Below are positions 1,518 to 4,123 of a stretch of 64,000 nucleotides of DNA, in pieces. A model generated the notes under the pieces. The model was not told the DNA's origin. It saw nothing but the letters and a program-made list of their open reading frames with translations, and ran no database searches. The stretch comes from Ascidiella aspersa (taxonomy: Eukaryota). The stretch is from assembly GCA_963924565.1 (NCBI GenBank), contig OZ004607.1:11532001-11596000 (forward strand), written 5' to 3'. The first letter of the stretch is position 1; every line of letters begins with the position of its first letter. The translations under genes and the position numbers were made by a program.

Positions 1518-4123
1518 TTAAAAGCCATTTCTAGAAGCAGTTTAAAACAATTTTCACTTTAACTATTCAAGTAACACAAGTGTTTTTTTTCAAAAGCAGT
1601 GTTTTTAACATGAATTGAATAGAGTGATACTAAGTGTTTTGTCTCACTTTATCATTAATCACTAAACCTATAATTTCTAATTACCTAAAACCGTGTAAGA
1701 ATGATTTATGGACTATAGATTTTCCTTTAAATCGGTATTTTTGTTTTTAAAATAGAATCCTCTAAATTTGTTTTCGTTTTTTGCTTAGTAGAAAACTTAC
1801 TTGCAAAAACAGGCCTTGTTGCATTTCGCCTCGTCCCAGCCCTTGCATAGGTTGGAGTGTGATTCGCAAAAGGCGTGCGGGCAAGTAAAGTTTTCCGGCA
1901 GCTCTACCGGATGGCTTCTGTCGCAAGAGTCGGGGGTCAAATCCTCGATGCAACAAGCGCAGCTACAGTAGGCGTTCATCTGAGCAAAAGCAATGCTATG
2001 AGTACTTAAATTGGTTGTGCTAGAAAGACATGTTGGTGGTATATATACACCTTTGTTTTACATATATATTCTCTGTTTTTTTCTGAATTAGATTAAGATT
2101 ATCGTTGGTCGAGCAGCTTCTGAAGGGCTAGATCTCAGTTGTTAACACACGTATGTGTGTGCATGTTTCATTGAATAAATGATATGGTACTGTGGATGCC
2201 CTTCAATATGAAGTTGCTTGTACTAACAGATTGAGCACGCATTGGCGTATGGTTGTTTCTCGACTCGCTCCTCTCCAAGCCTGTGTAGCTTAGCTGGTAG
2301 AGCGACGGTCCTGACTTGATCGTAGGTTGTGAGTTCGAACCTCACTACAGGCTAGTTGTTTTTGTAGCCTGTCCTGCTTGCATAGTTAATCGACAGGTTC
2401 ATTGAGTCTGCGATGGTACGTAAGCCTTAATCGTTAGTCGAAAGGCAGCTTCAGAAGGGCTAAATCTCAGTTGCTAACACACATATGTGTGTGCATGTTC
2501 ATTGAATTAGATTAGGATTGCAACAATATCTGATACGCGTGATAGTCGTAAGCTGGTGCCTGAAATATAGGTAAAAGACTACGGCAGAAGCAACCGAGTG
2601 GCTGGCAGATGTTGTTTCTCAGGTGCTTTGTAAGTTGGAAAGTGCTTTTTCAGTTTGGTAAGTAAATGAGAAAATCACTTGTTCGAAGAATGTTAGCCTT
2701 GGGCACGATTAACTATAATTGGCCAATCATGCTAATTTGTGAAAAAAATACACACGAATGTCGTAAATGTTTAATATTTTAGGGGGACCCACAGCAAACC
2801 TTTAAACTGCTTTATTGATTACGTATGATGATTTTTACGAGGTTTATTTGTGCGAATAAAGAGGATTACGTTAAGTTTTCTTTCGATTCGGCATCTACCT
2901 ATGTTTGTCGCCATTTGGCCTTCACACAATCAATCAATTGTTAAATACGCACTTCGTAGAATTCTATGTATTGTTCAAGTATCGTATCTCTTGCATTATA
3001 AACCAAAAGCTAGTTTTCGTAAAAAGAATCTTTTTTCATTTATATCTAAAAGAAACAGTGTTTTTCAAATTTGTAATTTGTTTCTTCGTAGCAAGTATAC
3101 TTGTATACCTTTTGTTAAATGAGTGACAATGTACAATACTTTAATAAATTTCACAATAAGTAAAAACATACTATGTTGTATTATTACACAATAAGTAAAT
3201 ACATACTATGTTGTATTATTATCAAAATTTTCTTGTGAACAATAAACTAGCCGACAAAAAAATGAATACATTTATTTGGTTAATCAACAAACCTTAAATA
3301 CTAGCTGTGCCGTTTCTTTCGTAATGTTTGCCGGATCTATCTTCATGTGAAAACTGTTTCCCAGATTGGTGATTTGACGCTTGACAGCCTAAAAATACAA
3401 ACATATTAAAGCTGTCAATAGTTTCCTGGCGTTTAAAGTATAGATATGTCCAGTTTAAAGAGTCAATTAAAACGCCAGTCGAATGGGGCATTTGAAAGAT
3501 GAATTAAATGCTGTTAAACTTAACATATTCCCCAACTTTCAACAACCGTGTCAGTAGAGTTTCGGCTTTCCATGTTGAATACCTAAACTTTTCGGGAAAG
3601 ACTGTGCAGTTTAGGCAATTTTTATATACGAGTAATGGGTTACCGCTACCAGAAATTACACAAAATTGTTAACGAGGTAGTGACAAGGTTAATTTTTATA
3701 TCAAAAAAACAATTTTACATGAGTAATAAAACGGTTAATGAAAACCGGCCAAAATTTGGCTTTATTAGAATTGAAATCAAAGGTCGTATAGGTCTACCTG
3801 TCTGGTGAGAACCGAAATGAAAGTTTTGTTTTCGTATTATTACCATTTTTCGAAGGGGAATGTTACATTCACTGAACGTTTTAACGATAAAGTTGGTCAT
3901 CTCAAGGCAAAACTCTAAAAAATACATTTTTATACTATAGTTATAAGATTTGTTCGAAGTCCTAATTGTTATCCCCTACCATTCGCCACACTTTCTTCCG
4001 GCGCACATCACTTACCTCATTCTCTAAATCGTACGTCTCCTCAATGTCCACTATGGCGGTCGGAGAACAGGAGATCAGCACCAAAGACCCGTAAAGTATC
4101 AGCAAAGTCAATGTGAGTCTCAT
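1518..4123 (-). CDS. Small secreted cysteine-rich protein of unknown family (~143 aa, 4 coding exons)
   Basis: Exons: 4123-3980 (MRLTLTLLILYGSLVLISCS signal peptide...RRKKVWRM), 3388-3293 (AVKRQITNLG...QLVFK), 1979-1801 (MNAYCSCACC...KACFC) and probably 1530-1518 (KNGF*). All introns are GT-AG with matching phases 0, 0, 2. The last exon is least certain. Confidence 0.7.
2084..2519 (+). mobile_element. tRNA-containing non-autonomous element with ~75-bp terminal direct repeats and an apparent 17-bp TSD
   Basis: Direct repeats at ~2101-2176 and ~2430-2506 (ATCGTT.GTCGA...GCAGCTTC.GAAGGGCTA.ATCTCAGTTG.TAACACAC.TATGTGTGTGCATG). Flanks are TGAATTAGATTAAGATT / TGAATTAGATTAGGATT. Confidence 0.65.
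2279..2353 (+). tRNA. tRNA-like cloverleaf (nominal anticodon GAC; atypical, probably a SINE/pseudo-tRNA head)
   Basis: Acceptor stem GCCTGTG/TACAGGC. D arm GCTT-AGCTGGTA-GAGC with A box. Anticodon arm ACGGTC-CTGACTT-GATCGT. T arm GTGAG-TTCGAAC-CTCAC with B box. A TTTTT Pol III terminator follows at 2359-2363. Confidence 0.7.
3153..3221. repeat. 35-bp tandem duplication
   Basis: CACAATAAGTAAA(A/T)ACATACTATGTTGTATTATTA occurs twice. Confidence 0.8.

What the first reader, a model, noticed from the sequence alone, without database searches (positions are those of the whole stretch)
2084..2519. tRNA-like Pol III unit carried between terminal direct repeats: TSD - R - tRNA+TTTTT - R - TSD
Seen: a cloverleaf with all four stems paired (some G-U), A and B boxes and its own terminator. 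It lies in the middle, not at the 5' end, of a 329-bp unit whose ~75-bp tail is duplicated at the front, and the whole is flanked by a 17-bp near-identical duplication. The anticodon arm is non-standard: 6-bp stem, GAC anticodon (eukaryotes normally use AAC/IAC for this Val box) and a pyrimidine at position 37. Ordinary SINEs start at the tRNA head and lack a terminator right after it. Inference: this ~1.2-unit permuted layout resembles insertions templated from tandem or circular RNA (Penelope pseudo-LTRs, retrozymes, Schistosoma Sm-alpha-like repeats). It may be a non-autonomous tRNA-bearing element mobilised by the Penelope-like elements whose relics occur elsewhere in this window. A weak hammerhead-like trace (CTGCGATG...GTCGAAAG, 2408-2445) overlaps the second repeat; that part is speculative.
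Basis: partly seen in the sequence, partly recalled or inferred. Interest (0 to 1): 0.72.

Follow-up and report, generated by a model that had tools for sequence, protein, structure and literature searches.

The report
tRNA-bearing parasite of Penelope retrotransposons
This is one decayed copy of an abundant, protein-less 345-base mobile repeat that carries a tRNA look-alike, has no intact self-cutting ribozyme and inserts in the same two-ended pattern as the Penelope-type retrotransposons of the same genome, so it likely borrows their enzyme and likely uses the tRNA part as its promoter.

Summary
The layout is real: a 17-bp target duplication around 1.2 units, with a tRNA-like module in the middle. 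It belongs to a family of 345-351-bp head-to-tail units. Two subfamily-specific probes give 746 and 351 exact hits, and arrays reach 12 units. 5' ends are scattered; 146 of 184 arms end at one of two sites about 93 nt apart (A, B), each in a predicted hairpin loop. Of 37 head-to-head insertions with both ends classed, 36 have one A end and one B end. The genome's autonomous Penelope-like elements (PLEs) do the same (17 of 18; sites 74-84 nt apart), and 4 of 6 share a short motif with the element at the same distance from A. So it is most likely a non-autonomous PLE passenger with a tRNA-derived Pol III promoter. The GAC anticodon and the 'hammerhead trace' are copy-specific decay; no intact hammerhead was found. 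Acceptor stem and a competing 3' hairpin both show compensatory changes. No discrete RNA was seen in one RNA-seq run. Closest known: Sm-alpha, animal retrozymes, MRC1. The scan's earlier AI notes describe similar elements in other genomes (unchecked).

The parts
2084..2100 (+). left target-site duplication (17 nt, AT-rich)
   Evidence: D2; family TSDs 8-19 nt, mode 13-14, 74% AT
2101..2176 (+). first R copy: 5'-truncated end of the previous unit (unit positions ~170-245)
2125..2134 (+). GG-N(1-3)-AGAT[C/T] motif, 45-47 nt after site A in the family, shared with 4 of 6 autonomous PLE tails; candidate PLE recognition element (inferred)
2168..2182 (+). site-B hairpin, internal copy (5-bp stem, 5-nt loop)
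   Evidence: predicted fold; coordinates
2189..2229 (+). 3' strand of the long rod helix; pairs with unit positions 173-210. A sister subfamily reads CTGATGA here, but without a GAAA partner
2265..2278 (+). leader just 5' of the tRNA module; predicted to pair with the D arm
2279..2353 (+). tRNA-derived module with A box (about 2286-2297) and B box (about 2332-2342); not a decoding tRNA; likely Pol III promoter
2347..2372 (+). 9-bp hairpin that takes the 3' acceptor strand and holds the T5 run (2359-2363) in its loop; mutually exclusive with the acceptor stem
2413..2428 (+). remnant of the site-A stem; site A itself is lost in this copy through an 18-nt deletion between 2416 and 2417
2430..2507 (+). 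second R copy, the PLE-type 'tail' between sites A and B; the copy ends at site B with 5 nt of microhomology to the target
2503..2519 (+). right target-site duplication

Best explanation
This is a 1.2-unit insertion of a high-copy, non-coding 345-351-bp tandem element with two fixed internal 3' ends, likely copied and inserted by the reverse transcriptase/GIY-YIG endonuclease of the genome's Penelope-like elements and likely transcribed by Pol III from its tRNA-derived module. Steps: (1, inferred) Pol III starts at a tRNA head in an array and partly reads through the T5, which sits in a hairpin loop. This gives an RNA longer than one unit with the tRNA part at both ends; the rest of the sense strand has no run above T4. 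(2, inferred from TSDs) The PLE protein makes a staggered cut of about 13-14 nt in AT-rich DNA. (3, ends shown; priming inferred) The two DNA 3' ends prime reverse transcription inside the RNA, one at loop A and one at loop B, with 0-5 nt of microhomology. (4, inferred) The enzyme runs past the tRNA head by copying a multimer, by switching between the repeated tRNA parts, or round a circle, and stops at random. This yields 1.x-mers, arrays and head-to-head arms (shown). This copy is a B-primed arm whose partner arm is missing; with one tRNA it could not remake the full unit (inferred).
For: Copy number and arrays. Ends: A 75, B 71, other 38 of 184 arms, where the two windows cover 15% of the unit; head-to-head pairs AB 36, BB 1, AA 0, 12 with an unclassed end, of 49. 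Autonomous PLEs: intact 816-aa ORF with RT and C-terminal GIY-YIG; 58 of 60 PLE ends fall at two sites and 17 of 18 head-to-head pairs are A+B. Shared motif at +44 to +49 from A in F1, F2, F5, F6 and at +45 to +47 in the element; background 0.0014 per 13-nt window; F5 and F6 were looked at after the motif had been noticed in F2 and F1. TSDs and junctions. Both sites unpaired in predicted 5-nt loops. Two internal start sites and extension of both strands were shown in vitro for another PLE (PMC11167929, main text read). Tail and inverted arm are listed as PLE hallmarks (PMC8557442, passages).
Against: No autonomous family has a clearly homologous tail. A profile of the element found no PLE tail (nhmmer). 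Of 35 pairwise tests only ref1-F2 (z 3.1) and L242-F6 (z 3.9) stood out, and the window copy itself scored z <= 1.2. F3 and F4 lack the motif. The A-B distance (about 93 nt) exceeds the local PLEs (74-84) and the published tail (30-40). A stranded RNA-seq run shows reads from both strands at similar depth and no start or end pile-ups, so Pol III transcription and a discrete RNA are not shown. A T5 right after the tRNA should stop many Pol III transcripts before A and B. Tandem units share rare variants in only 15 of 54 insertions, so single-template reiteration is not general or is masked by age.
Confidence: 0.8

Rival explanations
1. Same PLE dependence, but the tRNA fold is also the processing signal that replaces the hammerhead. 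The last, terminated tRNA of a multimer folds as a cloverleaf and is cut by RNase P at its head. Read-through tRNAs refold into the 9-bp hairpin and escape RNase Z. The result is a unit-length RNA whose ends are held together and are ligated or jumped across.
For: Promoter boxes need no paired acceptor stem, yet it is kept through subfamily changes (pair 6/69: CG 97, TG 28, TA 25, CA 10; pair 7/68: AT 104, GT 38, GC 11). So is the competing hairpin (75/88: TA 133, CG 41) and the rod (205/264, 206/263, 195/271). The fold brings positions 342-345 onto 12-15; circular z = -3.2 on the sense strand, -1.9 antisense. No excess of 5' ends at the head: 11 of 150 vs 7.4 expected. The 3 full units of L051 differ by 5 on average but by 32 from the nearest other insertion.
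Against: The counts are copies, not events (about 6-7 subfamily changes), and two of the locus sets were picked by patterns that fix one side of the acceptor pairs. Linear and circular folds differ by under 1 kcal/mol. No RNA ends at the head were seen. Multimeric linear templates explain the same DNA pattern.
Confidence: 0.27
2. PLE passenger whose templates are Pol II read-through transcripts of arrays; the tRNA part is a structured relic, not the working promoter.
For: RNA reads come from both strands and mostly run on into unlike sequence (86%). The T5 is kept in most copies.
Against: A and B boxes are kept in all subfamilies and older relatives seen. The PLE UTRs are full of T runs while the element's sense strand has one T5 and at most one T4; this is suggestive only.
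Confidence: 0.2
3. A hammerhead retrozyme (Sm-alpha type) whose ribozyme is cryptic or recently decayed.
For: A sister subfamily (351 exact hits) has CTGATGA followed by T, as in local PLE hammerheads. Rfam also missed the plain PLE hammerhead, so Rfam blanks are weak.
Against: No GAAA on the sense strand of either reference unit and no CUGANGA in the main family or this copy. The CTGATGA letters are explained as compensatory changes in the rod. The youngest array (12 units, 99% identical) still lacks a full core.
Confidence: 0.1
4. Ordinary LINE-dependent SINE (with twin-priming inversions) inserted beside a truncated copy, or a TRIMp3-type LTR element.
For: tRNA-derived module, TSDs, 5' truncation and inversions; terminal direct repeats in this copy.
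Against: 2 of 56 arms start at the head. No poly(A) or repeat tail at the junctions shown. Two fixed internal ends used one each. R length varies between copies, has no TG...CA ends, and TSDs are 8-19 nt, not 4-5.
Confidence: 0.03

Closest known systems
Sm-alpha / Sj-alpha SINE-like repeats of schistosomes (PMC6765202 and PMC2770079, passages; the 1998 primary paper was not held)
   Same: tRNA-related repeat, apparently Pol III-transcribed, in tandems where an upstream unit transcribes the next; single copies cannot propagate.
   Different: Sm-alpha carries an active hammerhead; none here. The passages read name no PLE partner and no two-site end rule.
Animal non-LTR retrozymes (PMC7229834, passages; bioRxiv 10.64898/2026.07.22.740005, parts 1-3 of 5)
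   Same: Non-coding tandem units of about 350 bp, long TSDs, structured RNA, proposed PLE dependence.
   Different: Defined by a type I hammerhead in each unit and by circular RNA; here the first is absent and the second untested. No tRNA module appears in the parts read.
Non-autonomous PLEs such as MRC1/Chlamys, and PLE tail/inverted-arm insertions (PMC8557442, passages; PMC11167929, main text)
   Same: Partial tandems, head-to-tail multimers, inverted 5'-truncated arm, tail at one end, two internal start sites in a stem-loop, AT-rich targets.
   Different: tRNA-derived module inside the unit; tail of about 93 nt; only motif-level likeness to the autonomous families sampled.
TRIMp3: Cassandra, Helenus, Ajax (PMC10886601, passages)
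   Same: Small-RNA-derived Pol III promoter in a non-autonomous element of a non-LINE class; Cassandra's transcript runs from one small-RNA module to the next, a model for step 1.
   Different: Those have true LTRs, PBS/PPT and 4-5-bp TSDs (integrase); this has none of these.

Membership tests
Non-autonomous Penelope-like element | 5'-truncated copies in partial tandems (pseudo-LTRs) and head-to-tail multimers | tested here: met
   53 of 184 arms longer than one unit
Non-autonomous Penelope-like element | inverted 5'-truncated arm next to the 5' end | tested here: met
   49 of 130 insertions
Non-autonomous Penelope-like element | [quoted passage not shown] | tested here: met
   146 of 184 arms at A or B; 36 of 37 classed pairs A+B; same rule in 17 of 18 autonomous pairs
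Non-autonomous Penelope-like element | 3'-end similarity to an autonomous family in the same genome | tested here: inconclusive
   positional motif in 4 of 6 families; whole-region alignment weak, nhmmer blank; only families found with one endonuclease query were sampled
Non-autonomous Penelope-like element | mobilised by PLE protein | not testable with these tools
   needs an in vitro or cell assay
Animal non-LTR retrozyme | non-coding tandem unit of a few hundred bases with long TSDs | tested here: met
Animal non-LTR retrozyme | type I hammerhead in each unit | tested here: not met
   core search on two reference units and this copy; the same kind of search finds the PLE hammerheads; Rfam blank but insensitive
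Animal non-LTR retrozyme | abundant circular RNA | tested here: inconclusive
   one fragment-library run: no pile-ups, both strands; junction reads also stand in DNA runs
Sm-alpha type element | tRNA-related Pol III promoter in a tandem unit | tested here: inconclusive
   boxes and cloverleaf present; promoter activity not shown
Sm-alpha type element | active hammerhead | tested here: not met
   no complete core; cleavage itself not assayed
Classic LINE-dependent tRNA SINE | full copies begin at the tRNA head | tested here: not met
   2 of 56 at the head, 35 of 56 upstream of it
Classic LINE-dependent tRNA SINE | single 3' end with poly(A), simple repeat or LINE-like tail | tested here: not met
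   two internal ends, no such tail in the 45 junctions printed
TRIMp3 (Cassandra/Helenus/Ajax) | fixed LTRs and 4-5-bp TSD | tested here: not met
   variable R, TSD 8-19 nt
TRIMp3 (Cassandra/Helenus/Ajax) | PBS and PPT between the repeats | not tested
   no formal search; moot given the variable ends
Decoding tRNA gene | stable anticodon, purine at 37, standard anticodon arm | tested here: not met
   Val/Ala/Thr calls across copies, pyrimidine at 37, extra base on each side of the stem

The most novel reading that the evidence does not exclude
A ribozyme-free retrozyme: a PLE-dependent SINE class in which a captured tRNA gene with its terminator is both promoter and a two-state processing switch (cloverleaf when terminated, cut by RNase P; hairpin when read through, shielded from RNase Z), making a unit-length, possibly circular RNA on which a PLE dimer primes from two loops, one per DNA end.
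Probability: 0.27. Interest if true: 0.82.

Novelty: new variant of a known kind. Interest (0 to 1): 0.62.

Why it matters
It would add Penelope-like elements to LINEs and LTR elements as carriers of tRNA-promoter passengers, without a ribozyme. The one-end-at-A, one-end-at-B rule (36 of 37 here, 17 of 18 in autonomous PLEs) turns the long-noted PLE 'tail at one end plus inverted arm' into a testable mechanism: the two cut DNA ends use different start sites on the RNA. The in vitro study read here saw no strand difference between sites and did not test such coupling. A 345-nt natural template is a compact substrate for mapping what a PLE enzyme recognises. Annotation note: copies are called as tRNA genes by ARAGORN in 9 of 10 loci tried and would inflate tRNA counts.

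Tried and rejected
Rfam ribozyme scans of this copy, a main-family array and a sister array: only tRNA hits; the control on a PLE hammerhead was also blank, so these carry little weight. The CTGATGA of subfamily 2 was followed as a possible hammerhead and rejected for lack of GAAA. Homology to PLE family F2 looked good at first (z 2.5-5.3 in 6 of 9 F2 UTRs) but weakened under wider controls. A second candidate motif (RTCG 15-24 nt after A), seen in F1-F4, failed in F5 and F6. The look-up of sequencing runs: no RNA holder listed. An empty-site allele was sought in three contig sets and one RNA run; no joint skipping the insertion was listed, and run X3 carries identical flanks and may be the source sample. 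No downstream-of-B continuation of an autonomous PLE was found to compare with unit positions 246-345. F2 protein and PLE tails found nothing in this window. Shared-variant test for one template per insertion: 56 shared vs 584 unshared rare variants in tandem pairs, 8 vs 292 between arms, control 156 vs 18,292; the signal sits in a few arrays. The D-stem rows were mis-indexed and not used. Literature: searches returned 0 papers; searches listed none that, by title and abstract start, describes a ribozyme-less tRNA-bearing PLE passenger. Repbase, most subscription journals and bioRxiv supplements were not seen, so prior description cannot be excluded. The scan's own notes: nothing near this place or by sequence.

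Full report
Observation. The window holds a 17-bp direct repeat at 2084-2100 and 2503-2519 with one mismatch. Inside it, 2101-2176 matches 2430-2507 at 88.6%. A tRNA-like module lies at 2279-2353 (Rfam tRNA 51.2 bits; ARAGORN Val-GAC), followed by T5 at 2359-2363. The sense strand folds better than all 100 shuffles (z -4.4; antisense -3.8).

The family. The own genome (308.6 Mb, 75 contigs) gave 4136 first-look candidates, of which 40 were scored. A 30-mer of the main subfamily has 746 exact hits, a 20-mer of a sister subfamily 351; reversed controls gave 0. Units are 345-351 bp, head to tail; one array has 11.9 units at 99% identity. I numbered the unit from the tRNA head, using an L008 unit as reference. 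The window copy runs from position 170 to 245 of the next unit and lacks positions 139-156. Its GAC anticodon is private: other copies are called Ala-GGC or Thr-GGT (9 of 10 loci gave calls).

Ends. I analysed 150 loci from five searches and dropped 20 as overlaps or duplicates. Three of those (L228, L237, L238) overlapped sites that had only been listed, so they were dropped needlessly. That left 130 insertions with 184 arms. The sets are not random: 30 loci were the best matches to this copy, the rest the first hits of four patterns. 3' ends: 75 at site A (window 144-163, centre about 151), 71 at site B (226-258, centre about 245), 38 elsewhere; the two windows cover 15% of the unit. 5' ends are scattered. 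Among arms holding the T-arm anchor, 35 of 56 reach upstream of the tRNA head and 2 start at it. 49 insertions are two arms head to head: 36 have one A and one B end, 1 has two B ends, none two A ends, and 12 have an unclassed end. With independent use of two equally likely sites, 36 of 37 has P about 3e-10 (my arithmetic). TSDs scoring >=8 flank 53 of 130 insertions against 9 of 390 shifted controls; they are 8-19 nt, mode 13-14, 74% AT, and the junctions show 0-5 nt shared with the target and no poly(A). In the predicted fold both sites are unpaired in 5-nt loops on 5-bp stems.

The likely helper. A GIY-YIG fragment next to one copy found 152 matches among 150 scored of 472 candidates. L137 holds an intact 816-aa frame with GIY-YIG above Pfam's cut-off and RVT_1 below it (E 3e-5). 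It has a CxxCxxC linker, which PMC8557442 (passages) gives for the Neptune and Nematis clades; I did not place it on a tree. The families have minimal type I hammerhead cores in their 3' UTRs and two 3' ends 74-84 nt apart: 58 of 60 ends at A or B, and 17 of 18 head-to-head pairs A+B (the sites were defined from the same loci). This is the element's rule. PMC11167929 (main text read, methods in part) shows in vitro that a PLE cuts AT-rich DNA, extends both strands and starts at two internal sites that delimit the tail. PMC8557442 lists partial tandems, an inverted arm and a tail at one end as PLE hallmarks. Sequence kinship is weaker. GG-N(1-3)-AGAT[C/T] lies 44-49 nt after A in F1, F2, F5 and F6 and 45-47 nt after A in both reference units, but not in F3, F4 or the older relative L247; background is 0.0014 per 13-nt window. 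Whole-region tests were mostly blank. The exact partner is therefore not identified.

No hammerhead. Neither reference unit has GAAA on the sense strand, and only subfamily 2 has CUGANGA. There it completes the rod helix through double-sided changes (205/264 CG 63, TA 14; 206/263 TG 47, AT 25). It may be the relic of a PLE hammerhead; that is a guess. Rfam blanks count little, since Rfam missed the PLE's own core.

RNA structure. Across 411 projected pieces the acceptor stem stays paired (92-100% per pair) through changes at 6/69 and 7/68. So does a 9-bp hairpin (69-94) that takes the same 3' strand and holds the T5 in its loop (75/88 TA 133, CG 41; its end pair 69/94 is weaker, 83%). The two structures exclude each other, and the minimum-energy folds choose the hairpin. 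These are a handful of subfamily events, partly from pattern-picked sets, so they suggest rather than prove selection on both folds.

Expression. About 6% of one 2026 RNA-seq run was laid: 1284 of 7,793,684 records fit the unit, from both strands, 86% running on into unlike sequence, with no start or end pile-ups. The library is stranded (all reads of the neighbouring gene on one side), and the flanks of this copy have essentially no reads. This fits copies embedded in host transcripts. A fragment library can lose short, non-polyadenylated or circular RNA, so the element's own RNA is neither shown nor excluded.

Mechanism. Shown: tandem unit, scattered 5' ends, two fixed 3' ends used one each, long AT-rich TSDs, the same rule in resident PLEs, no complete hammerhead. 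Inferred: PLE protein does the copying (about 0.9); Pol III makes the RNA from the tRNA module with leaky termination (about 0.7); the route past the head is a multimer, a switch between repeated tRNA parts, or a circle (undecided). Arms of one insertion often overlap in sequence (e.g. L053), which needs a template longer than one unit, strand displacement, or two RNAs.

Comparison and novelty. It works like an animal retrozyme or Sm-alpha but fails their hammerhead test, and fails the SINE and TRIMp3 tests. It meets the structural tests for a non-autonomous PLE; partner homology is inconclusive. Eight paper searches listed no description of this combination, within the limits of the library. 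After my reading was fixed, the scan's notes showed eight similar findings in other genomes. They are unchecked AI notes and not support, but they suggest the type is widespread. Verdict: new variant of a known kind, interest 0.62.

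Noticed in passing
window 52140-52175 (- strand) and 23059-23095 (+ strand): Two hammerhead-like cores (CUGAUGA ... 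GAAA); the one at about 52169 has a perfect 4-bp stem II. Probably 3' ends of other PLE or retrozyme families; no match to the PLE tails or the F2 protein tested.
   Followed up: partly
L216:1472-1800; 57 exact hits genome-wide: A 139-140-bp tandem derivative: tRNA module, T4, then a jump to about unit position 288. It often sits upstream of a normal unit that ends at site A. The hits look enriched near contig ends (by eye).
   Followed up: partly
L242, L245, L246, L247 (around 1500): Older, more diverged relatives with the same order of parts and a longer segment before site A; a source for a better covariation test.
   Followed up: partly
window 2416/2417; L011, L013, L046, L074, L206: 6 of 23 internal deletions of 8 nt or more remove or abut site A, all in arms that run past it; possibly skipping of the A hairpin by the B-primed enzyme. 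Weak.
   Followed up: partly
L250:802-4951 (G000:C1:37349800-37353950): The 12-unit array ends at site A and is flanked on both sides by reverse-strand pieces of the same family; it may have inserted into another copy.
   Followed up: no
L185, L197, L194, L211, L014, L021, L027: Several B-primed arms have their 5' end at about position 148-152, i.e. at site A, as expected if they stop at the other primed site.
   Followed up: no
window about 5600-8540 (- strand): Expressed, spliced host gene (joint 6293-6646) whose last reads lie about 3 kb from the element; includes an acidic repeat exon at 7830-8537.
   Followed up: no
window 1500-4350: In run X3 the flanks have about half the depth of the gene region (23-26 vs 54): the region may be haplotype-specific.
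   Followed up: no
window 57272-57994 (+ strand): 240-aa frame of charged ET(P/S)EERKARLQRD-type repeats; from recall this resembles Helitron N-terminal repeats, not tested.
   Followed up: no
L177, L178 (G000:C2:30626000-30643000): PLE family F2 sits in a 3422-bp tandem duplication whose copies break the frame near residue 526-531.
   Followed up: no
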